Part shown: positions 12,587-28,077 of the stretch, in pieces
Numbering within the stretch: the first letter of the stretch is position 1
Layout: each line of letters starts with the position of its first letter
NCBI GenBank assembly: GCA_045106985.1
Contig: JBGCFQ010000024.1
Span: forward strand, 128,502 to 192,501
Direction of reading: 5' to 3'
DNA: 64,000 nt
Source: Pseudomonadales bacterium
Lineage (GTDB): Bacteria > Pseudomonadota > Gammaproteobacteria > Pseudomonadales > JAUIET01
The notes under the pieces: model-generated
Database searches by the model: none
The model's input: only the letters and a program-made list of their open reading frames with translations
What the model was told of the DNA's origin: nothing
Program-made: the position numbers and the translations under genes

Positions 12587-14104
12587 ATGAATACGGTAAA
12601 AAATAAACGCTTCACGGTGCCAGCCACCGACATCGAATCGCAACAAAGAAGGCCGCGCCTGCGCGTCCATCCTACGTTGCTCGCCCCACTTTTAAGTCTG
12701 TTTCTGTTCGGTCAATTCAGCCAGGCCGAAACATCTGCTCAGCAGCCCTCTGACTCGGAATCCTCATCTACTTACGTAACCGCCCCGCAACCGGAGGTGA
12801 GTGACAGCGTCAGCGATGCCAATGACCCAAGGTTTGTAAGAGACCAGTACGTGCGAGAAGTAGAGTTGTTGCAGGCACAGTACGGAGCGTACAACAGCGA
12901 GCTGGCTGAGGCCCTACAAGGGCTGGGCGAAGCTCAACAACGGCTTGGCAAACATACTGACGCTATTGAGACACTCAAACAGAGTGCTCACATCACTCGA
13001 ATTAATGAGGGCCTCTTTGCTCCAGCGATCATGCCGATGCTCAACGCCATGGTTGAAAGCTATGCGCATTTGGGCGATTGGGAAGCTGTCGATGACCAGC
13101 ATCACTTCATGATGGAAATTAACGGAGCTAACTACGGCTGGAATGACGAGCGCATGTTGCCAATATTGGACAAGCTTACTCGCTGGCATATGTTCGCGTT
13201 TTTTGAGGCGGTCTCACCAGAGCCTTCGCATCATTTGCATATGGCGAGGTCGTTGTTTTCAGCAGCTTCAAGGGTAATAGAACTCAACTTTGGTCAATAC
13301 GATTTACGCCTGGCGAAGCAGCTACGCGGGCGCCGTATTGCTGATTATTACCTGGCGAGCATTATGGCCGACGAAGCCGAAAGCCAGTTGCGCCTTGAGC
13401 GCATGCAGAGTATCGGCAGAGACGAGAACTTCCGATTCGCTCAAGGAACAAGGACAATTTCACAAGGTTATTTGTCCGGGCTGCGTAGTTCGCGCCATGT
13501 AGTCGATATTTATGAGAACAATGATTCGGCCAGACCTGAAGAAGTGGCGGAAGCGATGGCTGAGCTAGGTGATTGGTATCTCCGCTTTAATAAACGTCAA
13601 TCGGCTATACGCACCTACCTTGACGCCTATAGCTTGTTGAGTGAAAACGCAGAAACAATCGCAATTCGAGATCGGATGTTTGGCCGACCCAAGGTGCTGG
13701 ATTTCGCTACCGATTACTCAGATTACCTAACACCCGCCGGAAAAAAACTATCAACAGGTTATGTTTTACTAGAGCTGGACTTAACCAAAGCCGGGTTGGT
13801 TAGCCGGGCGCAGTTTATTGAAGAGAAGCCGGCGCAGCCTTCAATGCGTCGCCGCGCGTTGCGCGAGCTTCGTAGCCGCCGTTTCAGGCCAAGGTTTGAG
13901 GACGGGGCACCAGTGCCTACGGCGGCGCTTAAGTATCGTTATCGCTACGAATACGCAGGACCGCCGATCTCCGCTTCGAGCAGCGAGCCAAAGCAGGCTA
14001 CTCAAGTAGATAAAGCTGAAGGGACAAAGCTCGAGAATAAAGCCGCTAGCTCAAAACCTTTAAAAGATCATTCGCCCGAAGGGGATTCCGATGCCACATT
14101 GTAA
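12587..14104 (+). CDS. signal-peptide TPR-like helical protein with TonB C-terminal-like domain
   Basis: N-terminal hydrophobic segment ending 'FSQA/ET', then TPR-like helices (for example 'ELAEALQGLGEAQQRLGKHTDAIETLKQS'). The C-terminal 'GYVLLELDLTKAGLVSRAQFIEE...RFRPRFEDGAPVP..LKYRYRYEY' resembles the TonB_C beta-alpha-beta pattern. Confidence 0.45.
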   Translation: MNTVKNKRFTVPATDIESQQRRPRLRVHPTLLAPLLSLFLFGQFSQAETSAQQPSDSESSSTYVTAPQPEVSDSVSDANDPRFVRDQYVREVELLQAQYGAYNSELAEALQGLGEAQQRLGKHTDAIETLKQSAHITRINEGLFAPAIMPMLNAMVESYAHLGDWEAVDDQHHFMMEINGANYGWNDERMLPILDKLTRWHMFAFFEAVSPEPSHHLHMARSLFSAASRVIELNFGQYDLRLAKQLRGRRIADYYLASIMADEAESQLRLERMQSIGRDENFRFAQGTRTISQGYLSGLRSSRHVVDIYENNDSARPEEVAEAMAELGDWYLRFNKRQSAIRTYLDAYSLLSENAETIAIRDRMFGRPKVLDFATDYSDYLTPAGKKLSTGYVLLELDLTKAGLVSRAQFIEEKPAQPSMRRRALRELRSRRFRPRFEDGAPVPTAALKYRYRYEYAGPPISASSSEPKQATQVDKAEGTKLENKAASSKPLKDHSPEGDSDATL

Positions 14105-15101
14105 AATTAAGGTTGTAGCAATATGTGCCTTGCTGGCTGTCTCGGCCTGTAAAGAAAAAGATGAGGAACAGGGCGGTGGTTCGGCAGTGGATCAGGGCAG
14201 TGTTCAAGAGAGTCATTCAAAGCCAGAAGCAAGCGCGTCAACAGCTGAACCTGGGTGGGAAGACGAGAGAGGTGAAGGGCTACCAGGCTTAGGCCAGGGC
14301 GGCAAAAGCGATACGGGCGCGGCGCAACGAGCATCAGATGAAAGAGAGATAGGCCATCGCCTGCCGCCTGCGGCTCCGCAAGCATCAGCCGGCGCTGGAA
14401 CTGGTAACGGACCATTCGGTGGTGCTACTGAAAGTGCCTCTATACCGCTGCCGACAGTGTTCAATGACGGCGACTACGACGTTGATGCTGGCTTGGAAGA
14501 CAGTGACTTTGATGTTGGCATTTCTGTGCCAGGCATTGGCTTACCTAGTATAGGTTTGCCCGGAATGGGTTTACCGGGTGGTGGAAGTTCAGGTGGCATG
14601 GGCGCGCCTAGCGCCGGTCTGCCTGGCGGAAGTGGTGGTGTTGGCGGTTTGGATGATGCTCTTGATGCATCGTTAGAAGACTTTGATGGCGTGGTTTTGG
14701 CAGGTAAAGACGGGGCCCGTGGAATGGAGAATTCAGGTGCTGGAAGTTCATCAAGCGGAGCCGCGAGTAGTGGCAAAGGCGGTGGAAAGGGCGGCGCGTC
14801 TGGTGCCGGTGGTGGCCAGGGAGGAGGGCAATCTCGAATTCCCCCACCACCCTCTGAGTCAGAATCTTCGAGCGGCGGGTCAGGCGGCGGTGGGGAGTCA
14901 GCCAAAGGCGCGAAAGGCGGCCCTAGGGGCTCCAACTCTAAAGGAAAGCAGCCAAACCCGGCTCCAGCCGACTTACAAGATGGCGACGACGATGATCTGA
15001 TTGCGCGCCAAATTAGAGAGGCCGCTGAAAACGAAGAGGATCCTGAATTGCAGGAAAAACTTTGGGACGAATATCGTAAGTACAAGAATGGTCAACGTTA
15101 G
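14091..15101 (+). CDS. lipoprotein with long Gly/Ser/Asp-rich low-complexity region
   Basis: Lipobox 'LLAVSAC'. Repeats 'GIGLPSIGLPGMGLPGGG' and 'GGGKGGASGAGGGQGGGQ' are followed by a conserved-looking acidic C-terminal helix. The start overlaps the upstream gene by 14 nt. Confidence 0.6.
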   Translation: MPHCKIKVVAICALLAVSACKEKDEEQGGGSAVDQGSVQESHSKPEASASTAEPGWEDERGEGLPGLGQGGKSDTGAAQRASDEREIGHRLPPAAPQASAGAGTGNGPFGGATESASIPLPTVFNDGDYDVDAGLEDSDFDVGISVPGIGLPSIGLPGMGLPGGGSSGGMGAPSAGLPGGSGGVGGLDDALDASLEDFDGVVLAGKDGARGMENSGAGSSSSGAASSGKGGGKGGASGAGGGQGGGQSRIPPPPSESESSSGGSGGGGESAKGAKGGPRGSNSKGKQPNPAPADLQDGDDDDLIARQIREAAENEEDPELQEKLWDEYRKYKNGQR

Positions 15102-15191
15102 GCGCCTGCTGGGCTTAACATTATTAACAATGGAAAATCCGTATTTGCCAAGATTTCCAGTTAGTTTCGCTAAAGACTTTGAGAATTACCC

Positions 15192-16403
15192 ATGAGTATT
15201 TCAGTTAAACGCCTGTTAAGCATCGTCGCACTGCTGCTTATGCAAGCTTGCTCTACAACAAACGTAAAAACATCAGATGTACATTTGCTGGATATGGCCC
15301 AGGAGGTGATTCCAGAACATTTACTGTTGGATGTTGGTATCAATATTTTTGATCCGGGTTTGGATTCCGCGGGAGATGATTCGAGCTTGTTTCCAGAAGT
15401 TCGTGAGGGCGAAGCCCGCTATCTGCCATTCAATTTAATGGAGACAATGCAAACGTCTGGTCATTGGGGCGCGGTCCGTGTGGTGCCATCAGAAATTGCA
15501 GCGGTTGATGTGCACGTTAATGGCAAAATACTGGAATCAGACGGTGAACGGTTATTTTTGCAACTGACCGTGTCAGACAGCACTGGTAACTTATGGTTTG
15601 ACCGTGAGTATAAGGAAGTCATTTCTGATTTCGTCTATAAGAAGCGACGGGCTGGCGAAGAGCCCTTTCAATCAATGTATAACCGCATTGCCAATGACAT
15701 CGCTAGCCACCAGGCGTCCTTAAACGTAGCGAGCAAAAACAACATACGAACGGTTGCTGAATTGCGCTTTGCCCAAGATTTTGCCCCTGACGCCTTTGGT
15801 GGTCACCTGAGTATTGATGAAGAGGGTATTCTCTCCATTAAACGCCTTCCTAGTGAAGTAGACCCAATGATGCAGCGGATTCGAAAGATCAGAGATCGCG
15901 ACTACTTGTTTGTTGATACTTTGCAGGATTACTACGGCGTTTTTCATCGGCAAATGGACGTACCTTATCTAGAATGGCGTGAGCGCAGCTACGACCATGC
16001 CGTCGCGATTAGAGAGTTGCGAAAGTCTCGCTCTATGCGCGGTATTGCAGGCGCTGCAGCAATAATAGCGGGGATCATGGCGGTTGGCGGCGGCAATGAC
16101 TATGCTCGAGCTGGTGGCGGAGTCGGCATCTGGGCTGGCAGTAGTCTGATTGGCAGCGCTTTACAAAAAGGCCAGGAATTAGGCCAGCATCAAGCTGACT
16201 TCAATGAAATTAGTGAATCGGTGATTACGGCGATTACTCCGCAGGTTATTGAGCTTGAGGATCAAACTATAACGCTGAGTGGTACTGTTAGTGATCAATA
16301 CGGGCAATGGCGAGAACTGCTGCGTGAGATCTATCGGCGAGAGAATGGGATTACCGCCGGCGATGCCAGCCTAAAATCTCCTGCTGCGAGTGATGAAGGG
16401 TAG
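15192..16403 (+). CDS. lipoprotein with C-terminal glycine-zipper segment
   Basis: Lipobox 'LLLMQAC'. A glycine-zipper-like stretch 'GIAGAAAIIAGIMAVGGGNDYARAGGGVGIWAGSSLIGSAL' lies at about nt 16041-16163. Confidence 0.55.
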   Translation: MSISVKRLLSIVALLLMQACSTTNVKTSDVHLLDMAQEVIPEHLLLDVGINIFDPGLDSAGDDSSLFPEVREGEARYLPFNLMETMQTSGHWGAVRVVPSEIAAVDVHVNGKILESDGERLFLQLTVSDSTGNLWFDREYKEVISDFVYKKRRAGEEPFQSMYNRIANDIASHQASLNVASKNNIRTVAELRFAQDFAPDAFGGHLSIDEEGILSIKRLPSEVDPMMQRIRKIRDRDYLFVDTLQDYYGVFHRQMDVPYLEWRERSYDHAVAIRELRKSRSMRGIAGAAAIIAGIMAVGGGNDYARAGGGVGIWAGSSLIGSALQKGQELGQHQADFNEISESVITAITPQVIELEDQTITLSGTVSDQYGQWRELLREIYRRENGITAGDASLKSPAASDEG

Positions 16404-16411
16404 TATCGTCG

Positions 16412-18007
16412 ATGAGCGAACCCGGAAAGCACACAGATGCAGGAAGAACTGCGGGTACCGCAACTATCGACAGAGGCATTGGTTCGAATATTGAAAACCA
16501 CACTGAGATAGCGCCCCTCAATCTGGATTTTTCTGAACTTGACGCAGTTGACGACATAGTTGCTGGCGCCACTTTAGAGGCGGGTTCACAGAGAGCGCCG
16601 AGGTGGTTACTTGCCACAATCATTGGCTTAGTCATTGCCGCCGTAACAGTCATATTTGTGTTGCCAACCGCTTTATCTCCAGCTGACCAACTCGCTGAAC
16701 AGGATGTGGAAGCTGAAGCCATCACGGCTGACGTAGAAAAGATTGATGAGGGCTCACCTTTTCAAGAAGCCAAACTCGCGCAGCAACGTAAAAACGCGCA
16801 AGACTCGCTGGAGCAATTACTTGAGAAGCAACTCTGGCTGGAAAAACGCAACGTTCAATTGTGGGCGGATAAAGAGTACCAACGCAGTTTCGAGTTGGCT
16901 GCCGAGGGCGATGAATATTATCGTAATCGACAGTTTGAAAAGGCCAATAATCTCTATTCAGAAGGTCTGGCAATTGTTACGAATCTTTTGGAAGGTGTGC
17001 CCGATCGCATCGATCGAAATCTTAAAGCCGGATTAGAAGCATTGCTAGTCAATGATGCTGAGAACGCAGAACAGGCTTTTGTTTTAATTCAGGCGATTCA
17101 ACCAGAGCATGACGGGGCTGCAGAAGGGTTGCAACGTCTTGCGGTATTGCCGTCAGTTAGCAAAGCATTGCAATTAGCTGACCGCTATCAAACCGAGCAG
17201 CAATTGCCTAAGGCCTTGGGCGAATTGCGCACAGTCGTTGAGCTCGACCCAGTGCGCGAAAGCCTGCTGACTGAACGCATAGCTCAGTTGGAACAGGCAA
17301 TTTTGGATCGAAACTTTGAAGAACAAATGTCTCAGGGCTATCAAAGCCTGGATCAGGGGAATCGATCGGCAGCAGCCCAATTTTTTACCCAAGCGAGCAA
17401 ACTAAAGTCTGAATCTACTGAGCCAAAAAAGGCTCTAAGAATGGTGCGCAATCAGCAAGCTCTTAGTCGTATGAGCGTGCATATAGATGAAGCCCGAGTT
17501 CTGGAACGAGAAGAACAATGGGCTGATGCGGTGAAGTCTTACGATGCTGCATTATCAATTGATGCGAACTTGAGTGATGCGGCGAACCGTCGTGCCAGAG
17601 CTGTTACTCGCATGAAGATGGATCAAGCTTTGGTAACACTTAATGATGATCCGTTGCGCCTTGCCGACAACACGATATATGCAAAAGCCGCGAAAATTCA
17701 TGCGGCGGGAACTCGAGTATCTGCTGCGGGACCGAGATTGACGCAACAACTAGAATTGCTGAATAAACAGTTGCAAGCATCTCGAATTTCACTTCCAGTG
17801 CTTATTGAATCTGACGGCTTTACTCAGGTGGCGCTTAGCCGCATTGCGCGTTTGGGTGTTCTTCAGCAGAAGAATTTATCATTGATACCTGGTCGATACG
17901 TAGTAACTGGGAGCCGAGACGGCTATCGCGATGTGCGTCGCGAATTTGAGGTGCCGCAGGGCGCTAGAAATGTACGAGTGGACATTCGTTGTGTCGAGCA
18001 AATCTGA
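16412..18007 (+). CDS. bitopic inner-membrane TPR-repeat protein with C-terminal PEGA-like beta domain
   Basis: A cytoplasmic N-tail is followed by a TM helix 'WLLATIIGLVIAAVTVIFVL' and a long TPR-like helical region. The C-terminus is 'LIPGRYVVTGSRDGYRDVRREFEVPQG' (PEGA-like). Confidence 0.5.
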   Translation: MSEPGKHTDAGRTAGTATIDRGIGSNIENHTEIAPLNLDFSELDAVDDIVAGATLEAGSQRAPRWLLATIIGLVIAAVTVIFVLPTALSPADQLAEQDVEAEAITADVEKIDEGSPFQEAKLAQQRKNAQDSLEQLLEKQLWLEKRNVQLWADKEYQRSFELAAEGDEYYRNRQFEKANNLYSEGLAIVTNLLEGVPDRIDRNLKAGLEALLVNDAENAEQAFVLIQAIQPEHDGAAEGLQRLAVLPSVSKALQLADRYQTEQQLPKALGELRTVVELDPVRESLLTERIAQLEQAILDRNFEEQMSQGYQSLDQGNRSAAAQFFTQASKLKSESTEPKKALRMVRNQQALSRMSVHIDEARVLEREEQWADAVKSYDAALSIDANLSDAANRRARAVTRMKMDQALVTLNDDPLRLADNTIYAKAAKIHAAGTRVSAAGPRLTQQLELLNKQLQASRISLPVLIESDGFTQVALSRIARLGVLQQKNLSLIPGRYVVTGSRDGYRDVRREFEVPQGARNVRVDIRCVEQI

Positions 18008-20510: not shown

Positions 20511-21308
20511 ATGAAAAGTAACTTGAGTCGCGAATTCATGTACCAGCTAATTGCGTTATTACTAGCAATTATCGTTGTACATACCGTGTACGTAGGGCTG
20601 ATAAGGCCTAATGCCGCAGAGCTTCTCGCTCACCAAGCGCAGCTACAAGCAGACGGAGGAGCGTATGTTCCTTCAAGATCGATCTATGTGGTACTGAAAG
20701 ACTTTGAACAGGAAACCTGCTTTATATTGGCTATCTGGGCGATTGCTATCATGGGCTTTAAAGCACGCAGTATCACCGGGCAGCGCCTTATGCTGGACCG
20801 AAGTTTGCTAAATATTAGCCCTGGCACAAGCATGCTTCCGGAAGACGCCCGTGATCATTCGCGTGCCTTGCAGGCACTTCCGCAGGAAGAAAAACAGAGC
20901 CTTTTACCCAGAGCACTGCTGATAGGTCTGCAGCGCTTCGGCTCTACGCGAAGCATTCAGGACGTAGCGACGGCTATCAAAGAGGTGTGTGAGAGTGAAG
21001 CCGACAGATTGGACTCCGAACTTGCGATGGTGCGCTACATAGCGTGGGCGATCCCTTCCATAGGTTTTATTGGTACTGTGCGTGGTATTGGCGCCGCGCT
21101 GGGTCAAGCGCACCAAGCGGTGGAAGGGGATATCTCGGGAGTAACCGCTAGTTTGGGCGTGGCATTCAACTCTACGTTTATCGCTCTAGTCGTTAGTATC
21201 CTAATAATGTTCTTAATGCATCAGCTGCAATTGCTGCAAGAACGCTTGGTGTTAGACAGTCAGCAGTATTGCGATACAAACCTAATGCCGCATTTACAAG
21301 TGCACTAG
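20511..21308 (+). CDS. MotA/TolQ/ExbB proton-channel family protein
   Basis: 'WAIPSIGFIGTVRGIGAALG' and 'LGVAFNSTFIALVVSILIMFLMH' match the conserved TM2/TM3 signature of MotA_ExbB channels. The ATG at 20511 is preceded by GGAAGAG. Confidence 0.8.
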   Translation: MKSNLSREFMYQLIALLLAIIVVHTVYVGLIRPNAAELLAHQAQLQADGGAYVPSRSIYVVLKDFEQETCFILAIWAIAIMGFKARSITGQRLMLDRSLLNISPGTSMLPEDARDHSRALQALPQEEKQSLLPRALLIGLQRFGSTRSIQDVATAIKEVCESEADRLDSELAMVRYIAWAIPSIGFIGTVRGIGAALGQAHQAVEGDISGVTASLGVAFNSTFIALVVSILIMFLMHQLQLLQERLVLDSQQYCDTNLMPHLQVH

Positions 21309-21328
21309 CACTGAGTTGGAAAAAAGCT

Positions 21329-22690: not shown

Positions 22691-22715
22691 TTTTTTCGCA
22701 TAGAGGTTCTCTGTG

Positions 22716-22740
22716 CATCCTAAATTTGCTTTTTAGGATG
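22716..22740 (+). repeat. perfect 9-bp inverted repeat (stem-loop) in the largest internal gap of the operon
   Basis: CATCCTAAA-tttgctt-TTTAGGATG. No T-tract follows it. Confidence 0.6.
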
Positions 22741-22801
22741 AGCAGTAAGTTGAGTTGCAAGAGCAAAGAAATAGAATCGAGACAGTGTTTATGAGTATCG
22801 A

Positions 22802-23887
22802 ATGAGACGAAAAAGAAACGCGACTACCTTTAACCTTTCCTTTCTCGATGTAATGTCGTGCGGGTTTGGTGCGGTCGTGTTGATTTTTTTGATTGTGGAG
22901 CACTCTAGCAGCACTCAGTCCAACGCTGCCAACACTATGGAGCTTGCTGAAGTAAATATGTTGGAGCGCGATATAGAACTGGAAGAACGGCTATCGGCTG
23001 AAGCCCGCAATGCGCTCCGCTTGGTTGATCTCGATATTGTTGAGGTCAGTGGCGCTTCGAAGCGTTTGGTTGACGAGCTGGAAAATCTTAAGGAAGAGCT
23101 AGCGGAGGAAGATTCTGACAGCCTTGCTCGTTTGGAGCATGTCAATCAGCTCAAGACTGAAATAAAAAACCTTGAGAAAGAAATAGAACGCTTACGCTCT
23201 TCGGATGAGGTAGGACAGGGGCGCCGCTCTCGGTTTGTTCGTGGAGAAGGTGAACGCCAGTATTTAACGGGATTGAGGGTTGGAGGACGCCGGATAATGG
23301 TCTTGCTTGATACTTCGTCCAGCATGTTAGACCGTACCGTTGTAAATATATTGAGACTCAGAAATCTGTCAGACGCTAGAAAACGGCAGGCTAAAAAGTG
23401 GCAGTCTGTTGTAGGCACGATGGATTGGTTGACCGCGCAATTCCCGCAGAGCAGTCAGTTTCAAATCTATTCTTTTAATACTGAAGCCAAACCAGTGATC
23501 GCAGACACGGATGGAGAATGGCTATCAGTGAGCGACACCGACATGCTTGAAGAAGCGATGGCGGAAGTCCGTCGCTTAGTGCCCGACGGCGGCACAAGCC
23601 TCGCCAACGCCTTTGAAGCGGTAGAGGGATTCGTGAGTCTGCCCGATAATATTATTTTAATCACTGATGGTCTTCCAACACAAGACAGCAGCCCCGGCAG
23701 CGGGAAGGTAAACAGTGAGAAAAGAATGCGTTTTTTCAGTAAAGCATTGAAACACCTGCCTGGCGGAATTCCCATTAACGTTATTCTCTCACCGATGGAA
23801 GGTGATCCAGCGGCTGCGGCTGCATTTTGGAATCTTGCCGTTGTTACCGGTGGCTCGTTCCTGAGTCCCTCTAAGGATTGGCCATGA
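22802..23887 (+). CDS. ExbD/TolR-like TM anchor - coiled coil - periplasmic vWA domain protein (paralog 1)
   Basis: N-terminus 'MRRKRNATTFNLSFLDVMSCGFGAVVLIFLIV' resembles the ExbD/TolR helix with its essential Asp (nt 22847-22849). A heptad-rich E/L/K segment follows. vWA MIDAS elements are 'VLLDTSSSM', 'GGTSL' and 'ILITDG'. Confidence 0.7.
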   Translation: MRRKRNATTFNLSFLDVMSCGFGAVVLIFLIVEHSSSTQSNAANTMELAEVNMLERDIELEERLSAEARNALRLVDLDIVEVSGASKRLVDELENLKEELAEEDSDSLARLEHVNQLKTEIKNLEKEIERLRSSDEVGQGRRSRFVRGEGERQYLTGLRVGGRRIMVLLDTSSSMLDRTVVNILRLRNLSDARKRQAKKWQSVVGTMDWLTAQFPQSSQFQIYSFNTEAKPVIADTDGEWLSVSDTDMLEEAMAEVRRLVPDGGTSLANAFEAVEGFVSLPDNIILITDGLPTQDSSPGSGKVNSEKRMRFFSKALKHLPGGIPINVILSPMEGDPAAAAAFWNLAVVTGGSFLSPSKDWP

Positions 23888-24876
23888 GATTCAGAAAGCG
23901 CGGCACCGAAGACATGAACGTCGCCTTTCTTGATGTGATTTGTTGTGGCTTCGGCGCCATCATACTATTGCTGTTGATCACCAAGATCATGGATCCAGCT
24001 GCGTTGGAAGAATCCCCACAGGACCAAGAAGCCGCCATCGCGAATTTACAAGAACAACTCTTTGAAATTCGGGGTGATGCCCGCGTATTGAATCGAGATT
24101 TAAACGCCAAGCGCGAGCAGCTCTCAGAGATTAAAGATTATGTCGCACGACTTCAGGGCGAACTCAGAGTATTGAAGGGCGAATTTGATGCAACCGATGA
24201 TGACTCGGCCACCAATACTTTGTTAGCGGGCGAATTAGCAGGGGCGCGCCAGACCTTAACCGAGGAAATGCAACGTTTGCTGGGTGAATCGTCACAGCGC
24301 TCTAATGATTTGATTGGTGGTATACCTGTTGATAGCGAATATCTTATTTTTATTATTGATACTTCAGGATCTATGGTGCAATCAGCGTGGTCGCGTTTGC
24401 AGCGCGAAATTATTGCAACCTTAGATGTTTATCCAGAAGTGAAAGGCATTCAGATAATGAATGATATGGGGAATTATATGTTTACCCGGCATCGCGAAAA
24501 GTGGATGACTGATGAGCCTCACCGACGTCGCGCCATCGTTCGTTCGCTGCAGAACTGGACGCCCTTTAGTAATAGTAGCCCGGTAGAAGGGGTGGAAGCC
24601 GCCATACGGACTTTTTACGAACCCGGTAAAAAGATCAGCTTGTTTGTATACGGCGATGATTTTTCCAGTGGCTCTATTCAAAGAGTATTGCTAACCATTG
24701 ACCGAATAAACCTGGAGGTCAAAGACGGGCAGCGATTAGTTCGAATTCACGCAGTTGGTTTTCCTCATTTGATCTCCGGGCGGGGGATGAAAAGCTCTGC
24801 TTCGCGTTTTGCTGCGTTGATGCGTGAAATGAGCTACCGTAATGGCGGTAGTTTTGTTGGACTGACACCGGAATAA
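23884..24876 (+). CDS. ExbD/TolR-like TM anchor - coiled coil - periplasmic vWA domain protein (paralog 2)
   Basis: N-terminus 'MRFRKRGTEDMNVAFLDVICCGFGAIILLLLI' (Asp at nt 23932-23934), then a coiled coil and the vWA motif 'FIIDTSGSM'. ATGA start/stop overlap with paralog 1. Confidence 0.7.
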   Translation: MRFRKRGTEDMNVAFLDVICCGFGAIILLLLITKIMDPAALEESPQDQEAAIANLQEQLFEIRGDARVLNRDLNAKREQLSEIKDYVARLQGELRVLKGEFDATDDDSATNTLLAGELAGARQTLTEEMQRLLGESSQRSNDLIGGIPVDSEYLIFIIDTSGSMVQSAWSRLQREIIATLDVYPEVKGIQIMNDMGNYMFTRHREKWMTDEPHRRRAIVRSLQNWTPFSNSSPVEGVEAAIRTFYEPGKKISLFVYGDDFSSGSIQRVLLTIDRINLEVKDGQRLVRIHAVGFPHLISGRGMKSSASRFAALMREMSYRNGGSFVGLTPE

Positions 24877-24880
24877 AAAC

Positions 24881-25936
24881 ATGAATGGAGTGTCTAAGTT
24901 GTTAATGAATAGAGTACGGGGGTTTCAAGTGCGGCTTGGCTTGCTGGTTGTGGCGACATTGGCTCTGGCGGCTTGCGCCACGAGCACTGAAGTCGACGTG
25001 AAAGGCACACAGGAGTTTCCAGTGCCATTGGTTGTTAGAGCCGATTTGCACATGGGCATCTATGTTCCAGAAGAGTTCGAATCTTATGTGTACGAAGACT
25101 ACGAAAAGGTAAAGAAAAAGAAGTCCAGAAGTGAAATAAGAGCGGCTAAGAAAATAGCCAAGAAAAAGGCGGAAGATCAAAAAAAGGCTGAGCAAAAGAA
25201 AGCCGAAGAAAAGAACGCCGAGCAAAAAGAGACAGAGCAGGACAAGGTAAATAAGAAGGCAGAACCCTCTAACGACGATGACTCTGATGCAGAGCAGGAA
25301 AAAGCAGCACCGGTATTATCCCTGGCTTCCGCTGATTCCGACGCCCAATTGCAAACTGACGCCGAGGAACAAGCAGCAACAGGAAAAAACACAGCTAATG
25401 CCAACGAAAGCACTGGCTCCGGCGCTGGCAGCTCGGTTGCGTCATCCGCCTCTGCAGCGGCGAAGGATGAATTGCGCTTAAAGTTTCGTATCAGCCTGGG
25501 TGAAGCTCAGGCGAAAATGGTACGCACAGTCTTTCCTGGCGTGTTTCGCCAAACGACGATGCTAGAGTCGCTGGCGCCGGAAAATTTGCCCGACGACATC
25601 GACTTTTACCTAGTGCCGAGTATTACCAAGGTTCAGTACACTACGCCGAAAACCACAAGGTTAAACGTCTATGAGATTTGGTTGCAGTACACGTTTACGA
25701 TTTATGATCGTCGTGGTGATGTGATTACGCGCTGGCGTGTGCCGAGTTATGGGAAAACACCAACGGCCTTCATGAAGTCTAAAGAAAATGCGTTGCAGAC
25801 GGCAACACAGATGGCACTTCGCGATTGCGGGGCGGCGTTTTCTACAGGGTTTAGAACGCAACCGGCGATAGCTCGCTGGCTGCAAGCGCGAGAAAAAAAG
25901 CTCGAGATTCAAACAACTCCTAAGGTAGCAATATGA
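24881..25936 (+). CDS. lipoprotein with Lys/Glu/Ala-rich disordered linker
   Basis: Lipobox 'LALAAC'. The region 'KKKKSRSEIRAAKKIAKKKAEDQKKAEQKKAEEKNAEQKETEQDK' is followed by a folded-looking C-terminal domain. Confidence 0.55.
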   Translation: MNGVSKLLMNRVRGFQVRLGLLVVATLALAACATSTEVDVKGTQEFPVPLVVRADLHMGIYVPEEFESYVYEDYEKVKKKKSRSEIRAAKKIAKKKAEDQKKAEQKKAEEKNAEQKETEQDKVNKKAEPSNDDDSDAEQEKAAPVLSLASADSDAQLQTDAEEQAATGKNTANANESTGSGAGSSVASSASAAAKDELRLKFRISLGEAQAKMVRTVFPGVFRQTTMLESLAPENLPDDIDFYLVPSITKVQYTTPKTTRLNVYEIWLQYTFTIYDRRGDVITRWRVPSYGKTPTAFMKSKENALQTATQMALRDCGAAFSTGFRTQPAIARWLQAREKKLEIQTTPKVAI

Positions 25937-26595
25937 AGCCTACTTACTTAGTAAAGAAACTCATGCTGGTAGTGCTATTGGTGCTCTCAACGGCCTGTAC
26001 CACCACAACGATTGACGAGTACCGACAAGAAGGCGTTGACCTGGTGGCTGGACGCTCTGTTGTCGTGTTGGGTCGCCGGCATACCAGTGGCGCTGTTACC
26101 GAGCCTTTTGTTACTTCCTGCATCTCATCGCAATTAGGCCGTGGAAAGAATCCCATCAGTGTGATTGGCGAGCAAGATTTTCAAGACAGATTGTACCCCT
26201 GGTTTGAGCCTAGAACCGCGCCTTTGCAACTCTCGCGATTGAAAACAGTATTAGCTAAGCCAATCATTGCCAATGAGATTAAGAATATGGGCCTGCAGTA
26301 CATTGTTTGGGTTGACGGCAGCACGCAACGAGGAGCAAGCGCCGGTGGAATGTCTTGTTCTATAGGCGTTGGTGGTGCAGGGTGTCTTGGCTTTGGCACT
26401 TGGGAAGATGATGGTGAGTATGAGCTTTCCGTTTGGGATATTTCGCAAGACAAACCGGTTGCTGAAATGAGCGCCAGCGCGGCGGGCGTTTCTTATATGC
26501 CGGCGGTTGTAGTACCGTTGCCACTAATCGCTCGAGTGAAAACCTCGGTCTGTAACGGCTTGGCACAACAGATCAAGCAGTTGTTTCCTGAATAG
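25933..26595 (+). CDS. lipoprotein, unknown function
   Basis: Lipobox 'LVLSTAC'. ATGA overlap with the upstream gene. 220 aa. Confidence 0.55.
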   Translation: MKPTYLVKKLMLVVLLVLSTACTTTTIDEYRQEGVDLVAGRSVVVLGRRHTSGAVTEPFVTSCISSQLGRGKNPISVIGEQDFQDRLYPWFEPRTAPLQLSRLKTVLAKPIIANEIKNMGLQYIVWVDGSTQRGASAGGMSCSIGVGGAGCLGFGTWEDDGEYELSVWDISQDKPVAEMSASAAGVSYMPAVVVPLPLIARVKTSVCNGLAQQIKQLFPE

Positions 26596-26604
26596 GAGCG
26601 TAGT

Positions 26605-28077
26605 ATGACTTCCCCAACGTCTTTGATTCATTTCTTACTTATAGCCCTCTTGGCTTGCGGAACCCTTTGGTCCGATGACGCTCTGGCGATGTCGGAGAAA
26701 AAAGCGATAAAAATTGGTAAGAAAGCGTATGAGCAAATCATCAACAAAAACCCGCCATACCCCGACGAAGAATTGCAAGCTTATGTTCGAGACATCGGAA
26801 ACAGACTGGCCTCTCACAGTGATTTAGCCGACAAACCCTGGCGCTTCACGGTGCTTGATGACCCCGCCATAAACGCGTTCGTTACACCTGGTTATTTCGT
26901 TTACGTGAATACCGGACTATTGACCTACATCCAATCCGAAGCGCAGCTAGCGGGCGTTATAGGTCATGAAATTGGTCACCTTGTGCGTAAGCACCCTGAC
27001 AGGCAGTCGACAGCCAATGGTTGGACCAAAGCGCTATCAACGATTGCTACGGTTTTGGTCGGTGTAACAACCGGCAGTGGTCAAGCTGCGAGCGGCGCGA
27101 ATCAGTTGGGCTCCTTAGCTGGCACCGCACTCGTTCGAGGTTACGGTCGAGATATGGAGTTGGAGGCTGACGAAGAAGGAGCGAAATACTTATTGGCCGC
27201 GGGTTATCCTCCGGAGGCCATGGTGGATGTGATCGCGGTGCTTAAGGATCAGGAGCGCTTTGCGCGGTTAAAGGCAAAAGAGAAGGGCGCTAGACCCATC
27301 GCCTACCATGGCGTGTTTTCCACTCATCCTCGCAACGACAAGCGATTACAAAATGCCGTTCGAGCTGTGGGCAGTCTGGACGAAGGCGTAGTTGAGCGCG
27401 GCCTGGACGGTGATTTTGAAGAGCATATGGAGGGTTTTAAATTCCTCAACACGCCACTGATATTCCGAACGACTGGCAGTCGCTATCTCAATCGGCCAAT
27501 GGATTTCACCCTGGCGTTTCCAAGCGGTTGGTCGATTAAGTCTAAGGGCTCTGTAATCCAGGCGAAAGGTGAAGGTGGCAAGGCGGTTATCCAAATGCGG
27601 ATCAAAAAGCTGGAGGAAGAAATAACGCCAGAAAAGTATCTTCGCGAAGTTCGGAATTTTAAAACGCTTGAAAATGGCGAGTCTCTGGATAATGAACATA
27701 TTAAGGGTTATTCGGCTATTGTTCCTGCAAACTCAAAATATCCGGCCCGAAGAATCGCTGTCATATTCCACAAGAAAAGGGCCTTCTTGTTCGTTGCTCA
27801 GCTCACCGACCCCAGTATCCCCGAAGCCTTGGCCAGCTTTTATGACACACTTTTTATGGCGAGTTTCTGGAGTTTCAGACCTCTAAACGAATACGATCGG
27901 TCAATTGCCTTATCGCGGCACATTAGTTGGTATCAAGCAGAGCAGGGCGTAAGCTTTGAAGCGCTCGCTGCAGCAAGCCCGATTAAGGAGTTTGCTGAAG
28001 AAGAGCTTCGCTTGATGAATGGCTATTACCCTTATGGCGAGCCTAAAGCAGGAGAATGGCTAAAAATTGTTCGCTAA
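26605..28077 (+). CDS. M48 family zinc metallopeptidase (probable lipoprotein)
   Basis: 'GHEIGHLVRKH' HExxH at nt 26965-26979, a downstream 'ELEADEEGAKYLLAAGYPPEAM', and a possible lipobox 'ALLAC'. AGGAG lies upstream of the ATG. Confidence 0.8.
   Translation: MTSPTSLIHFLLIALLACGTLWSDDALAMSEKKAIKIGKKAYEQIINKNPPYPDEELQAYVRDIGNRLASHSDLADKPWRFTVLDDPAINAFVTPGYFVYVNTGLLTYIQSEAQLAGVIGHEIGHLVRKHPDRQSTANGWTKALSTIATVLVGVTTGSGQAASGANQLGSLAGTALVRGYGRDMELEADEEGAKYLLAAGYPPEAMVDVIAVLKDQERFARLKAKEKGARPIAYHGVFSTHPRNDKRLQNAVRAVGSLDEGVVERGLDGDFEEHMEGFKFLNTPLIFRTTGSRYLNRPMDFTLAFPSGWSIKSKGSVIQAKGEGGKAVIQMRIKKLEEEITPEKYLREVRNFKTLENGESLDNEHIKGYSAIVPANSKYPARRIAVIFHKKRAFLFVAQLTDPSIPEALASFYDTLFMASFWSFRPLNEYDRSIALSRHISWYQAEQGVSFEALAAASPIKEFAEEELRLMNGYYPYGEPKAGEWLKIVR

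What the first reader, a model, noticed from the sequence alone, without database searches (positions are those of the whole stretch)
12587..28077. 13-gene coupled operon: candidate uncharacterised ion-driven trans-envelope system (MotA/ExbB channel + ExbD-like vWA pair + PEGA/FGE + TPR/TonB-C + pseudo-Hsp70-FHA + lipoproteins + M48)
Seen in sequence: 13 consecutive + strand ORFs fill 12587-28077. Their junctions are typical of translational coupling: a 14-nt overlap at 14091/14104, an 8-nt gap at 16403/16412, ATGA overlaps at 23884-23887 and 25933-25936, a 4-nt gap at 24876/24881 and a 9-nt gap at 26595/26605. The only larger internal gaps are 90, 51 and 111 nt. Predicted localisation covers every envelope compartment. 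There is one polytopic MotA/TolQ/ExbB channel (20511), four bitopic inner-membrane proteins (16412, 17970, 22802, 23884) and one cytoplasmic protein (21329). There are also two signal-peptide proteins (12587, 20109) and five lipobox proteins (14091, 15192, 24881, 25933, 26605). Established: MotA/ExbB/TolQ channels form 5:2 ion-driven motors with a single-pass Asp-bearing partner, and they power Tol-Pal, TonB uptake, flagella, Agl-Glt gliding and Zorya defence. Inference: this gene set fits none of these. It has no ExbD/TolR periplasmic domain, no OmpA-like peptidoglycan-binding module, no TolB/Pal, no Pro-rich membrane-anchored TonB and no nuclease or helicase. It therefore looks like a distinct energised envelope machine whose output modules are periplasmic vWA heads and PEGA/FGE-fold binding domains. 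The flanks (glcB; ygfZ-sdhE-nadB-rpoE) are core genes, which argues for a chromosomal physiological system rather than a mobile island.
Basis: partly seen in the sequence, partly recalled or inferred. Interest (0 to 1): 0.9.

Follow-up and report, generated by a model that had tools for sequence, protein, structure and literature searches.

The report
Proton-driven envelope motor with vWA axle
This is a real, strictly conserved 13-gene operon of marine Gammaproteobacteria in which a TolQ/MotA-like proton channel pairs with two membrane-anchored vWA proteins instead of TolR/ExbD; a 2025 paper predicted the motor core by computer, but nobody knows what the machine does.

Summary

- **Conservation.** The same 13 genes occur in the same order in nearly every one of about 60 related loci with enough flank. 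The flanking genes differ between genomes. Relatives occur in several hundred species-representative genomes: Halieaceae, Cellvibrionaceae, Microbulbifer, Thalassomonas and others.
- **Motor.** g7 is a divergent MotA/TolQ-like channel. g9 and g10 are paralogs. Each has an ExbD/TolR-like helix with an invariant Asp, a fixed-length coiled coil of about 100 residues, and a vWA head with a DxSxS MIDAS motif.
- **Prior description.** This matches, feature by feature, the "trans-pore-helix vWA + tolQ-like, no tolR" class predicted in silico in Mol Biol Evol 2025 (PMC12204202). That paper reports no function and no phenotype.
- **New here.**
  - Remote variants keep a six-gene core: lipoprotein g3, TM-TPR g4, TM-PEGA-FGE-like g5, g7, g9 and g10.
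  - g8 is an Hsp70-NBD-fold plus FHA protein with degenerate ATP loops.
  - A cytoplasmic tail motif, [ILV]xPxxFxP, sits on g4 and g5 and occurs only where g8 is encoded.

The biological role is unknown. My best guess is Tol-Pal-like force transmission to outer-membrane lipoproteins.

The parts
12587..14104 (+). g1: secreted (signal peptide) TPR protein with a TonB_C/TolA-C-like C-terminal domain. It belongs to the 13-gene form and is absent from remote variants and from L001.
   Evidence: TPR_12 E 4e-8. TonB_C E 1.2e-3, which is below the cut-off. Among orthologs, TPR_12 is found in 14/14 and TonB_C in 5/14, best E 9e-10. Orthologs have signal-peptide-like N-termini.
14091..15101 (+). g2: lipoprotein with a long Gly/Ser/Pro low-complexity linker and a highly conserved acidic C-terminal helix, DDDxxARQ(I/L)REAAxxExDPxLxEKLWxEYRKYK.
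   Evidence: No Pfam hit. The lipobox is seen in orthologs whose start is called correctly. The C-terminal 35 residues are nearly identical in about 20 loci.
15192..16403 (+). g3: core lipoprotein. It has an N-terminal alpha/beta domain that weakly resembles the TolB N-domain and LptE. This is followed by a long helical hairpin carrying a Gly/Ala-rich hydrophobic loop.
   Evidence: Lipobox Cys20 is invariant in 46 sequences. The family has 1122 clusters and no Pfam domain. AF2 gives pLDDT 76. Foldseek matches TolB and LptE at E 7e-3 to 0.1 with TM about 0.2, so this is a lead only. g3 is retained in the remote variants L089-L091.
16412..18007 (+). g4: core bitopic inner-membrane protein. It has a cytoplasmic tail of about 65 aa carrying a PxxF(E/D) motif, one TM helix, a periplasmic TPR array and a C-terminal beta-sandwich.
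   Evidence: TPR_2 E 2e-7. Among orthologs, TPR is found in 17/20, Phage_tube_C in 4/20 and CarboxypepD_reg in 1/20 at the C-terminus. TM at 66-84. The tail motif is found in 27/53 tails against 3.6 in shuffles.
17970..20093 (+). g5: core bitopic inner-membrane protein. It has a cytoplasmic tail with the [ILV]xPxxFxP motif (IIEPVAFEP), one TM helix, four PEGA beta-sandwich repeats, and an FGE-sulfatase-fold (C-type-lectin-like) domain without catalytic cysteines.
   Evidence: PEGA E 7.5e-37 in four stretches; FGE-sulfatase E 4.7e-42. The best NCBIfam hit is GldK/PorK at 130.6 bits, below the 350 cut-off. No Cys follows RGxSW in 69/69 orthologs. The tail motif is in 53/59 distinct tails against 1.3 in shuffles. 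An alternative start exists at 17931.
20109..20459 (+). g6: small secreted protein with a variable acidic/Pro-rich body. Its C-terminus is nearly invariant: [FY]xP[ST]ExISEDLSVSFP[VA]DI-COOH.
   Evidence: Signal peptide. The C-terminal motif is conserved in about 20 loci. No Pfam hit.
20511..21308 (+). g7: divergent MotA/TolQ/ExbB-family proton channel, the presumed pentameric part of a 5:2 motor.
   Evidence: PF01618 at 56.9 bits against a 22.9 cut-off. NCBIfam TolQ E 7e-7. A profile search of PDB gives TolQ as the only hit, at E 0.035. PSIGF(I/L)GTVRGI is in 76/82 and AFNST in 82/82 orthologs; in the alignment these two Thr-bearing motifs fall on the TolQ segments GLFGTVWGI and ALIATAIGL. 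Orthologs are 56-81% identical, which makes g7 the most conserved gene.
21329..22690 (+). g8: the only cytoplasmic protein. It has an Hsp70 nucleotide-binding-domain fold with degenerate phosphate loops, a disordered linker of about 30 aa, and a C-terminal FHA-like domain. It belongs to the 13-gene form only.
   Evidence: AF2 pLDDT 90.6. Foldseek matches Hsp70/DnaK NBDs at E 1e-15 to 1e-13. An FHA profile search hits EmbR, KIF13B, EssC and Rad53 at E 0.015-0.4, and one homolog carries PF00498. There is no Pfam HSP70 hit. ELND and D-L-Q-L-H replace the Gly-rich loops. g8 is absent from L089-L091.
22802..23887 (+). g9: trans-pore-helix vWA protein. It has an N-terminal TM helix FNLSFLD(I/V)MSCGFGA with an invariant Asp16, a coiled coil of about 100 aa, and a vWA head with a DxSxS...GGTS...TDG MIDAS.
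   Evidence: VWA_2/VWA_3 E 1e-7. Alignment A2 shows D16, D170, S172 and S174 invariant. The family has more than 3918 clusters. The Asp-to-MIDAS spacing is 154 aa in 67/83 orthologs.
23884..24876 (+). g10: paralog of g9 with the same TM-Asp, coiled-coil and vWA architecture. It is the presumed second half of a heterodimeric axle.
   Evidence: BLASTP against g9 gives E 9e-10. hhalign of the g9 and g10 profiles gives probability 99.4%, E 6e-22. D17 and DTSGSM are invariant. PDB searches hit coiled coils and the integrin I-domain. The spacing is 142 aa in 59/79 orthologs. There are 287 clusters at 50% identity with E <= 1e-30.
24881..25936 (+). g11: lipoprotein. The window copy carries a K/E/A-rich low-complexity insert of about 110 aa that most orthologs (209-257 aa) lack.
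   Evidence: The lipobox is conserved. No Pfam hit. It is collinear in the 13-gene loci.
25933..26595 (+). g12: lipoprotein with four invariant Cys besides the lipobox Cys. The fold is unknown.
   Evidence: Alignment A4 shows C22, C63, C142, C151 and C207 invariant. There is no PDB or Pfam relative.
26605..28077 (+). g13: M48 zinc metalloprotease with an HEIGH motif, exported (lipobox or signal peptide), with a C-terminal domain of about 240 aa that has no Pfam match. It is missing from some loci (L006, L013, L027, L068).
   Evidence: Peptidase_M48 E 2.2e-36. HE[IV]GH is found in 42/60 ortholog ORFs. Its absence from those loci is seen.

Best explanation
The locus encodes a trans-envelope machine powered by the proton-motive force and built around an unusual 5:2-type motor.

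**Motor (inferred from sequence features).** g7, a TolQ/MotA-like protein, forms the pentameric channel. The axle is not TolR/ExbD/MotB. It is a heterodimer of the paralogs g9 and g10. Their N-terminal helices each carry the proton-binding Asp and sit inside the pentamer. Proton flow turns or pulls this dimer.

**Stalk and heads (inferred).** The periplasmic coiled coils of g9 and g10 have a fixed length of about 100 residues, roughly 15 nm. They form a stalk that presents two vWA heads. The metal-ion (MIDAS) sites of the heads grip an acidic ligand near the outer membrane. The best candidates are encoded in the operon:
- the core lipoprotein g3;
- the invariant acidic C-termini of g2 and g6.

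**Scaffold (inferred).** The two bitopic proteins g4 (TPR plus beta-sandwich) and g5 (PEGA array plus a non-catalytic FGE/lectin-fold domain) form a periplasmic, wall-associated scaffold around the motor.

**Additions in the 13-gene form (inferred).**
- g8 is a cytoplasmic pseudo-Hsp70 with an FHA-like domain. I propose that it docks on the [ILV]xPxxFxP tails of g4 and g5, as PilM docks on PilN, and acts as a regulator or clutch.
- g1, g11 and g12 extend the periplasmic and outer-membrane end.
- The M48 protease g13 processes or quality-controls a component.

**Biological output (a guess).** Tol-Pal-like mechanical coupling or maintenance of the outer membrane, rather than nutrient import, motility or defence.

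**What is shown.** Gene content, domain folds, conserved residues, co-occurrence and synteny. The assembly, the rotation, the ligand and the physiological role are all inferred.
For: **Motor**
- g7 matches PF01618 above the cut-off. Its two Thr-bearing motifs fall on the TolQ segments GLFGTVWGI and ALIATAIGL in the profile alignment and are conserved in at least 76 of 82 orthologs.
- No ExbD, TolR or MotB domain is present anywhere in the cluster.
- g9 and g10 carry SFLD(I/V)(M/I), an ExbD/TolR-like helix with a conserved Asp.
- They are paralogs: hhalign probability 99.4%.
- They are always adjacent to each other and lie in the same cluster as g7, even in the rearranged remote variant L090.

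**Stalk and heads**
- Coiled-coil hits cover residues 37-140 of g10.
- The Asp-to-MIDAS spacing is fixed at 154 and 142 residues.
- DxSxS is conserved in all but a handful of orthologs.

**Independent literature**
- PMC12204202, section 8 and Fig. 4c-d, reaches the same motor model from AF3 predictions for tolQ-like genes paired with heterologous TM-vWA genes that lack tolR.

**Core partners**
- g3, g4 and g5 remain linked in variants at 25-31% identity.

**g8 docking**
- The Hsp70-NBD fold is confident.
- The tail motif is in 53/59 g5 tails against 1.3 expected, and in 27/53 g4 tails against 3.6 expected.
- The motif and the long tails are missing in exactly the three variants that lack g8.

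**Housekeeping character**
- Orthologous clusters sit between different chromosomal genes in different genomes.
- No plasmid hit and no defence-model hit.
- G+C is the same as in the flanks.
Against: - No experiment exists for any homolog. PMC12204202 states that no phenotypes are reported.
- The 5:2 stoichiometry, the heterodimer and the rotation were not modelled here, because no multimer prediction was available.
- g7 is very distant from every solved motor. The best match is TolQ at E 0.035.
- No ligand of the vWA heads is identified. The g2, g6 and g3 candidates rest only on conservation.
- The resemblance of g3 to TolB-N/LptE is weak, with TM about 0.2.
- The link between g8 and the tail motif rests on only three g8-less variants. 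The 13-gene loci are related by descent, so the counts are not independent.
- The FHA-like domain lacks an obviously conserved Gly-Arg pair, so phosphothreonine binding is doubtful.
- Nothing in the operon points specifically to outer-membrane maintenance rather than another output.
Confidence: 0.55

Rival explanations
1. It is a surface adhesion or gliding machine, analogous to Agl-Glt or to the Bacteroidetes gliding/T9SS apparatus. In this reading the motor moves the vWA heads or a GldK-like FGE-fold ring. These engage a surface adhesin or substratum ligand and give attachment, aggregation or gliding.
For: - The domain repertoire overlaps with both systems. It includes a MotA-like channel, TPR proteins, a TonB_C-like domain and a vWA domain with MIDAS. 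For comparison, PMC12204202 cites the vWA adhesin CglB of Myxococcus.
- The FGE-fold domain has GldK/PorK as its best NCBIfam match, at 130.6 bits.
- PMC12204202 itself suggests a gliding-type role for the vWA transducers.
- The host clades are particle-associated marine heterotrophs.
Against: - The cluster has no outer-membrane beta-barrel, no adhesin with repeats and no SprA/Sov-type translocon. It also lacks GldM/GldN and TolR-like AglQ/AglS.
- The GldK score is far below the 350-bit cut-off.
- The vWA heads are tethered to the inner membrane by a stalk of about 15 nm, so they cannot reach the cell surface.
Confidence: 0.15
2. It is a TonB-like energiser for import across the outer membrane. 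The motor would energise an outer-membrane transporter encoded elsewhere, through the TonB_C-like domain of g1 or through the vWA heads. The lectin-fold and PEGA domains would capture a polysaccharide or another large substrate in the periplasm.
For: - A TonB_C domain is present in g1 orthologs, best E 9e-10.
- The host families are polysaccharide degraders.
- The C-terminus of g6 (LSVSFPVDI) looks like a beta-strand that could pair with a TonB_C domain.
Against: - g1 is not membrane-anchored and has no Pro-rich spacer.
- g1 is missing from the remote variants and from L001, so it cannot be the core transducer.
- No TonB-dependent receptor is linked in any of the loci examined.
Confidence: 0.1
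3. It is an anti-phage or conflict system of the Zorya type. A MotA-like channel would sense envelope perturbation and activate an effector.
For: - There is a weak ZorA hit for g7, at E 0.004 and 14 bits.
- vWA, FGE-fold, PEGA, Hsp70 and FHA domains recur in the conflict systems described in PMC7159879.
Against: - No nuclease, helicase, protease cascade, NTPase or toxin effector is present.
- No ZorB, ZorC or ZorD hit is found.
- The cluster is present in many genera of whole families, with a fixed gene order.
- There is no plasmid copy.
- Composition is like the flanks.
- PMC7159879 does not mention MotA at all.
Confidence: 0.03
4. The genes do not form one machine. They are a run of unrelated envelope genes that happen to lie together.
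For: No transcript or interaction data exist. Promoter and terminator scans are uninformative.
Against: - All 13 genes are collinear in about 60 loci at 23-81% identity.
- Orthologous clusters have different flanking genes.
- The junctions are overlapping or nearly abutting.
- A six-gene core stays linked even after rearrangement.
Confidence: 0.02

Closest known systems
TolQ-like + paired trans-pore-helix vWA proteins (second vWA 'force transducer' family of PMC12204202, Mol Biol Evol 2025; prototype Idiomarina loihiensis; in-silico prediction only)
   Same: - A tolQ/motA-like gene lies in the same cluster as two heterologous TM-anchored vWA genes.
- The cluster has no tolR, exbD or motB.
- The vWA TM helix is TolR/ExbD-like and carries the conserved Asp.
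- The channel has conserved Thr residues.
- The family occurs in Proteobacteria.
- The function is unknown.
   Different: - The main text of the paper never mentions PEGA, FGE/sulfatase or Hsp70, and none of the lipoprotein passages I read concerns this family. The conserved partners are therefore not described there. These partners are g3, g4, g5, g8, g1, g2, g6 and g11-g13.
- Also not described there are the six-gene core versus the 13-gene form and the cytoplasmic tail motif.
- Direct sequence homology to the Idiomarina prototype could not be tested, because its sequences are not in the held supplements.
Tol-Pal (TolQ-TolR-TolA-TolB-Pal-CpoB)
   Same: - TolQ is the nearest solved relative of g7.
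- Both are operons that combine an inner-membrane motor, a periplasm-spanning helical element, a TPR protein, a TonB_C/TolA-C-like domain and outer-membrane lipoproteins.
- g3 has a weak TolB-N/LptE-like domain.
   Different: - There is no TolR. The Asp helix is fused to a coiled coil and a vWA head.
- There is no membrane-anchored TolA, no beta-propeller TolB and no OmpA-like Pal.
- PEGA-FGE, Hsp70-FHA and M48 proteins are present in addition.
T9SS / gliding motor GldL-GldM with the GldK-GldN ring
   Same: - Both have a 5:2-type channel whose partner is a single-pass protein with a long periplasm-spanning dimeric stalk.
- Both have an FGE-sulfatase-fold, non-catalytic protein as a structural partner. 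GldK is the best NCBIfam match of g5.
   Different: - g5 scores 130.6 bits against the 350 cut-off, and it is a bitopic inner-membrane protein rather than an outer-membrane lipoprotein.
- There is no GldM, GldN or SprA.
- The host is a gammaproteobacterium.
PilM-PilN (type IV pilus alignment complex) and GspL
   Same: By analogy only. In both, a cytoplasmic actin/Hsp70-fold protein with a degenerate or non-essential ATP site clamps a short conserved N-terminal tail of a bitopic inner-membrane protein.
   Different: - There is no sequence relationship.
- Foldseek places g8 with Hsp70 NBDs, not with PilM or FtsA.
- g8 carries an FHA-like domain.
- Binding has not been tested.
Zorya (ZorA-ZorB plus effectors)
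   Same: It is another MotA/MotB-derived motor with a non-flagellar output.
   Different: There is no ZorB peptidoglycan-binding domain, no long ZorA tail and no ZorC or ZorD. The distribution is housekeeping-like.

Membership tests
TolQ-like + trans-pore-helix vWA pair (PMC12204202, Fig. 4c-d) | A tolQ/motA-like channel gene tightly linked to TM-anchored vWA genes | tested here: met
   g7 matches PF01618. g9 and g10 lie 1.5 kb downstream in the same operon and are linked in all loci, including the remote variants.
TolQ-like + trans-pore-helix vWA pair (PMC12204202, Fig. 4c-d) | No tolR/exbD/motB gene in the cluster | tested here: met
   No ExbD, MotB or OmpA family hit for any of the 13 proteins in Pfam. 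Ten were also scanned against NCBIfam and ten against PADLOC.
TolQ-like + trans-pore-helix vWA pair (PMC12204202, Fig. 4c-d) | vWA genes occur as a heterologous pair | tested here: met
   g9 and g10 are paralogs at 28% identity. BLASTP gives E 9e-10 and hhalign gives probability 99.4%.
TolQ-like + trans-pore-helix vWA pair (PMC12204202, Fig. 4c-d) | TolR/ExbD-like trans-pore helix with a conserved proton-binding Asp; no SHLS motif | tested here: met
   Asp16 (g9) and Asp17 (g10) are invariant in the motif SFLD(I/V)(M/I). There is no His in the helix. The likeness to ExbD/TolR is judged by motif only, from my own knowledge of those sequences.
TolQ-like + trans-pore-helix vWA pair (PMC12204202, Fig. 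4c-d) | Ring of conserved Thr in the pentamer lumen around the Asp pair | tested here: inconclusive
   The Thr residues in GTVRGI and AFNST are conserved, and these motifs fall on the TolQ segments GLFGTVWGI and ALIATAIGL in the profile alignment. The geometry of the ring needs a multimer model, which was not available.
TolQ-like + trans-pore-helix vWA pair (PMC12204202, Fig. 4c-d) | Sequence homology to the Idiomarina loihiensis prototype proteins | not testable with these tools
A related Alteromonadales genome (Thalassomonas, L080) carries the full cluster.
Tol-Pal | TolR, membrane-anchored TolA, beta-propeller TolB and OmpA-like Pal | tested here: not met
   None of these domains is found. 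There is only a weak TolB-N/LptE-like fold in g3 and a TonB_C-like domain on the secreted protein g1.
Ton system (ExbB-ExbD-TonB) | ExbD, plus a TM-anchored, Pro-rich TonB with a C-terminal TonB_C domain | tested here: not met
   There is no ExbD. TonB_C sits on a signal-peptide TPR protein and scores below the cut-off in the window copy.
Zorya | ZorA with a long tail, ZorB with a peptidoglycan-binding domain, and ZorC/D or other effectors | tested here: not met
   PADLOC gives only a 14-bit ZorA hit at E 0.004 and no other Zorya component.
T9SS / gliding GldKLMN | GldK equivalog score; GldL, GldM and GldN present | tested here: not met
   TIGR03525 GldK scores 130.6 bits against a 350 cut-off. 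There are no GldL, GldM or GldN hits.
Bat / MoxR-vWA systems | MoxR AAA+ ATPase and a DUF58 protein next to the vWA proteins | tested here: not met
   There is no AAA+ or DUF58 hit in the cluster.
Hsp70 chaperones | Pfam HSP70 match, Gly-rich phosphate-1 and phosphate-2 loops, and a substrate-binding domain | tested here: not met
   The NBD fold is present. However, there is no PF00012 hit, the loops read ELND and D-L-Q-L-H, and the C-terminal domain is FHA-like rather than a substrate-binding domain.
Formylglycine-generating enzymes | Catalytic Cys pair in the FGE domain | tested here: not met
   There is no Cys in the 30 residues after RGxSW in 69/69 orthologs. The position of the catalytic pair is taken from my own knowledge of FGE.

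The most novel reading that the evidence does not exclude
This would be a separate, widespread class of proton-driven trans-envelope machine, alongside Ton, Tol-Pal, the flagellar stator, Agl-Glt and T9SS. In it the rotating axle is itself the force transducer: a heterodimeric Asp-helix, coiled-coil and vWA stalk that grips outer-membrane lipoproteins through MIDAS sites. A cytoplasmic pseudo-Hsp70/FHA protein gates the motor by clamping the tails of its two bitopic scaffold proteins. The physiological function would be new and not covered by any of the known systems.
Probability: 0.4. Interest if true: 0.85.

Novelty: new member of a known kind. Interest (0 to 1): 0.66.

Why it matters
Only a handful of machines are known to carry inner-membrane proton energy across the periplasm: Ton, Tol-Pal, the flagellar stators, Agl-Glt, T9SS and Zorya. 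Each of them opened a field.

This locus is a complete, well-bounded example of a further class. So far that class exists only as a short computer prediction, with no phenotype and no partner list.

The work here supplies three things:
- **A partner list.** A six-gene core and a 13-gene elaborated form.
- **Point mutations to make.** The two Asp residues, the MIDAS residues and the tail motif.
- **Cultured carriers to test them in.** Congregibacter variabilis IMCC43200, Halioglobus japonicus, Pseudohaliea rubra, Kineobactrum sediminis, Microbulbifer, Simiduia and Thalassomonas.

The system sits in abundant coastal marine heterotrophs. Its role, whether in envelope integrity, particle attachment or something new, could matter for marine microbial ecology as well as for motor biology.

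Tried and rejected
- **Defence system.** PADLOC gave only noise-level hits and the plasmid search was empty. Rejected.
- **NTP-dependent conflict systems of PMC7159879.** These share vWA, FGS/FGE, PEGA, Hsp70 and FHA domains. They are built around MoxR or GTPases, and the paper never mentions MotA. Rejected.
- **Sequence searches of PDB.**
  - g8 as a single sequence gave nothing; only its profile picked up FHA domains.
  - The g3 and g12 profiles gave nothing.
- **Structure search for g3.** It gave only weak TolB-N/LptE matches. I kept this as a lead and not as evidence.
- **Pfam on ortholog sets.** It added nothing for g12. For g10 it gave only a few weak VWA hits.
- **Rfam on the whole window.** No match.
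- **Promoter and terminator scans.** No signal above the shuffles.
- **hhalign of g4 against g5.** This tested whether the C-terminal domain of g4 is a PEGA paralog. It aligned only the tail and TM region, and only weakly, at probability 5%. The beta-sandwich assignment for g4 therefore rests on a few weak Pfam hits.
- **Literature.** Five keyword searches on the gene set found nothing. One search then found PMC12204202. Its supplements did not hold the prototype vWA sequences.
- **Not attempted.** Multimer modelling and SignalP/TMHMM-grade topology prediction, because no such tool was available.

Full report
**1. The observation**

- 14-nt overlap between g1 and g2.
- 8-nt gap between g3 and g4.
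- ATGA overlaps between g9 and g10 and between g11 and g12.
- 4-nt and 9-nt gaps around g11 and g13.
- Three larger gaps of 90, 51 and 111 nt.

G+C is flat across the cluster and its flanks. Consensus promoter and terminator scans give no more sites than shuffled sequence. Rfam finds nothing in the window.

The window comes from a Pseudomonadales (GTDB sense) metagenome-assembled genome. g8 is identical to a protein with locus tag AB8B86_13075.

**2. What the 13 proteins are**

Pfam, NCBIfam and PADLOC scans and analyses of ortholog sets gave the following.
- **g1.** Signal peptide, TPR, and a TonB_C-like C-terminus. TonB_C is below the cut-off in the window copy but is present in 5 of 14 orthologs, best E 9e-10.
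- **g2.** Lipoprotein with a Gly/Ser/Pro low-complexity body and a highly conserved acidic C-terminal helix.
- **g3.** Lipoprotein of 403 aa with no known domain. AF2 gives pLDDT 76. It shows an alpha/beta domain that matches the TolB N-domain and LptE only weakly (Foldseek E 7e-3 to 0.1, TM about 0.2). It also shows a long helical hairpin with a Gly/Ala-rich loop.
- **g4.** Cytoplasmic tail, one TM helix, periplasmic TPR repeats and a C-terminal beta-sandwich.
- **g5.** Cytoplasmic tail, one TM helix, four PEGA repeats and an FGE-sulfatase-fold domain (E 5e-42). No Cys follows the RGxSW motif, where I expect the catalytic Cys pair of FGE, in 69 of 69 orthologs. Its best NCBIfam match is GldK/PorK, at 130.6 bits against a cut-off of 350.
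- **g6.** Small secreted protein with the nearly invariant C-terminus ...SEDLSVSFPVDI.
- **g7.** MotA/TolQ/ExbB family, at 56.9 bits against a cut-off of 22.9.
- **g8.** The only cytoplasmic protein. The AF2 model is confident (pLDDT 90.6).
  - Residues 1-325 have the Hsp70 nucleotide-binding-domain fold (Foldseek E 1e-15 to 1e-13, TM up to 0.72).
  - The C-terminus is FHA-like. A profile search hits the FHA domains of EmbR, KIF13B, EssC and Rad53, and one homolog is annotated with PF00498.
  - The Gly-rich phosphate loops of Hsp70 are replaced by ELND and D-L-Q-L-H. Canonical ATP binding is therefore unlikely. This is an inference.
- **g9 and g10.** Described in section 3.
- **g11 and g12.** Lipoproteins without known relatives. 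g12 has four invariant Cys besides the lipobox Cys.
- **g13.** Exported M48 metalloprotease with an HEIGH motif.

No ExbD/TolR, MotB/OmpA, TolB, Pal, MoxR, nuclease or helicase domain is present.

**3. The motor core**

g9 matches VWA_2 and VWA_3. g10 has no Pfam hit, but it is a paralog of g9. BLASTP gives E 9e-10. Profile-profile hhalign gives probability 99.4% and E 6e-22 over the TM helix, the coiled coil and the first half of the vWA domain.

Both proteins begin with a basic stretch followed by the helix (F/M)N(L/V)(S/A)FLD(I/V)(M/I)(S/C)CGFGA.
- The Asp is invariant in alignments A2 and A5 and present in nearly all of about 85 orthologs of each.
- From my own knowledge of the sequences, the helix resembles the ExbD/TolR helix (...FIDVM...).

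A coiled coil of about 100 residues follows (coiled-coil PDB hits). Then comes a vWA domain with a conserved DxSxS MIDAS motif. The distance from the TM Asp to the MIDAS Asp is fixed at 154 residues in 67 of 83 g9 orthologs and 142 residues in 59 of 79 g10 orthologs. This suggests a stalk of defined length.

g7 is far from all solved motors. TolQ is the only hit, at E 0.035. It nevertheless keeps the motif PSIGF(I/L)GTVRGI in 76 of 82 orthologs and AFNST in 82 of 82. In the alignment these Thr-bearing motifs fall on the TolQ segments GLFGTVWGI and ALIATAIGL.

**4. Conservation**

*Family sizes*
- The g9 family has more than 3918 clusters at 90% identity.
- The g3 family has 1122.
- The g10 family has 287 clusters at 50% identity with E <= 1e-30.
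- The fast-evolving g8 was found in only 63 clusters by the word-indexed search.

*Taxa*

Of 600 pattern-matching stretches, 595 were confirmed, so at least several hundred genomes carry a relative.
- The best 80 loci are from Halieaceae (Congregibacter, Luminiphilus, Halioglobus, Haliea, Pseudohaliea, HTCC2080), Cellvibrionaceae, Pseudohongiellaceae, Kineobactrum, Exilibacterium and Thalassomonas.
- g3 homologs add Microbulbifer, Simiduia, Gilvimarinus, Aestuariicella and Pseudomaricurvus.

*Synteny*

tblastn of the 13 window proteins on 86 loci shows all 13 in the same order in nearly every locus with enough flank.

| Gene | Identity to the window protein |
|---|---|
| g7 | 56-81% |
| g10 | 48-65% (one truncated locus, L048, gives only a 25% match on the g9 paralog) |
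| g9 | 44-57% |
| g3 | 37-55% |
| g8 | 23-40% |

The genes that flank the cluster differ from genome to genome, so the cluster behaves as one self-contained unit. It is not on plasmids.

g13 is missing from a few loci (L006, L013, L027, L068). g1 is missing from L001.

**5. Core and elaboration**

Remote full-length relatives of g10, at 31-33% identity, sit in reduced clusters.
- L089 is from a Candidatus Eutrophobiaceae MAG.
- L090 and L091 are metagenome contigs.

tblastn finds only g3, g4, g5, g7, g9 and g10 there, plus g2 in L091. In L090 the cluster is even split and rearranged. None of the three has g8, g1, g11, g12 or g13 nearby.

So the core is six genes: lipoprotein g3, TM-TPR g4, TM-PEGA-FGE g5, and the motor genes g7, g9 and g10. 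The Hsp70-FHA protein, the TPR/TonB_C protein, two further lipoproteins and the protease are additions of the 13-gene form.

**6. A tail motif that tracks g8**

The cytoplasmic tails of g5 are otherwise unconserved, but they carry [ILV]xPxxF[EDTSQ]P, which is sometimes duplicated.
- In g5 it is present in 53 of 59 distinct tails, against 1.3 (maximum 6) in shuffles.
- In g4 a related PxxF(E/D) motif is present in 27 of 53 tails, against 3.6 in shuffles.
- In the three variants without g8, the g5 tails are short and lack the motif, and the g4 tails lack it too.

g8 is the only cytoplasmic protein of the operon. I therefore infer that g8 docks on these tails, as PilM clamps the N-terminus of PilN. 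Two limits apply. The evidence is co-occurrence only, from three g8-less loci. The loci with the motif are related by descent, so they are not independent.

**7. Comparison with what is known**

Several keyword searches found no paper on this gene set.

[quoted passage not shown] 4c-d. [quoted passage not shown] - They have a TolR/ExbD-like trans-pore helix with the conserved Asp.
- AF3 models place the Asp pair inside a Thr ring of the pentamer.
- They come mostly in heterologous pairs.
- They occur in Proteobacteria and Verrucomicrobia, with Idiomarina loihiensis as the prototype.
- Their function is unknown.

The window's g7, g9 and g10 meet every one of these defining features. Direct sequence comparison with the prototype was not possible. 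The paper's main text has no mention of PEGA, FGE/sulfatase or Hsp70. The partner list, the core-versus-elaborated distinction and the tail motif therefore appear to be new.

Membership in Tol-Pal, Ton, Zorya, T9SS/gliding, Bat/MoxR-vWA, bona fide Hsp70 and catalytic FGE was tested. It failed on defining features in each case.

**8. Most likely mechanism**

*Shown*
- Gene content, domain folds, conserved residues and linkage.

*Inferred*
- A g7 pentamer surrounds a g9-g10 heterodimer.
- Proton flow through the Asp/Thr path turns or pulls the dimer.
- Its coiled-coil stalk of about 15 nm carries two MIDAS-competent vWA heads to the outer part of the periplasm.
- There the heads hold an acidic ligand: the lipoprotein g3, or the invariant acidic C-termini of g2 or g6.
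- g4 and g5 form a wall-associated scaffold.
- g8 regulates from the cytoplasm.
- g13 processes a component.

For the physiological role I rank the options as follows:

| Role | Confidence |
|---|---|
| Tol-Pal-like outer-membrane coupling or maintenance | first; part of the main model, 0.55 overall (mostly for the motor architecture, much less for the role) |
| Adhesion or gliding | 0.15 |
| TonB-like import | 0.10 |
| Defence | 0.03 |
| Unrelated genes | 0.02 |

**9. Verdict**

The motor principle is not unprecedented, because it was predicted in silico in 2025. I therefore class the locus as a new member of a barely characterised kind, not as categorically new.

It remains interesting for four reasons:
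- The machine is widespread in abundant marine bacteria.
- It has 13 conserved parts, most without any known relative.
- It has no known function.
- With the partner list, the target residues and the cultured carriers identified here, it can now be tested directly.

Noticed in passing
window 4260-9964 (+): A complete-looking coenzyme F420 biosynthesis cluster lies just upstream of glcB. It comprises an F420-dependent NADP oxidoreductase, CofE (F420 ligase), CofD, CofC and an 846-aa radical-SAM protein with a CofH C-terminal region, possibly a CofG/CofH (FbiC-type) fusion. To my knowledge this is unusual for a marine gammaproteobacterium.
   Followed up: partly
window 28087-38234: The downstream genes are ygfZ on the - strand (KGCYTGQE motif, but no Pfam hit at E 0.1), sdhE, nadB on the - strand, rseB/mucB, a DegP/MucD-like protease and lepA. 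rseB and a DegP-like protease, which belong to the sigma-E envelope-stress regulon in other Gammaproteobacteria, therefore lie only about 5-7 kb from the operon in this genome. The neighbourhood is not conserved in other genomes.
   Followed up: partly
window 14474-15085 (-): A 203-aa antisense ORF lies inside g2. Its translation is Pro/Ser/Gly-rich, the mirror of the low-complexity region of g2. It is most likely an artefact and not a gene.
   Followed up: no
window 20109-20459 and 14091-15101; orthologs in L003-L064: The very C-termini of g6 ([FY]xP[ST]ExISEDLSVSFP[VA]DI-COOH) and g2 (DDDVVARQLREAAxxExDPxxREKLWxEYRKYK) are almost invariant. The rest of each protein is hypervariable low-complexity sequence, and some orthologs have poly-Ser runs of 30 or more residues. 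These look like short docking motifs for an unknown partner.
   Followed up: partly
window 24881-25936: The window's g11 (351 aa) carries a K/E/A/Q-rich insert of about 110 aa that most orthologs (209-257 aa) lack. L016 and L038 have inserts of similar size.
   Followed up: no
L013, L083, L068, L056, L078, L062: Several public MAG records that carry this cluster are labelled Klebsiella pneumoniae, Klebsiella sp., Enterobacteriaceae or Acidobacteria. The cluster and its identity levels match marine Pseudomonadales and Alteromonadales relatives, so these labels are probably mis-assignments or mis-binning.
   Followed up: no
L025 (Luminiphilus MAG JAYQIT010000001.1) 11499-13956: In this locus g10 (198 aa), g12 (178 aa) and g13 (157 aa) are truncated. 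The cause is either frameshifts from a polished long-read assembly or pseudogenisation of the operon.
   Followed up: no
L090 4030-7551 and L001 15516-16655: Variant clusters carry extra genes that the window lacks. The rearranged remote variant L090 has a 1173-aa protein without Pfam hits upstream of its vWA pair. L001 has a DUF6607 protein after a short M48 protease.
   Followed up: no
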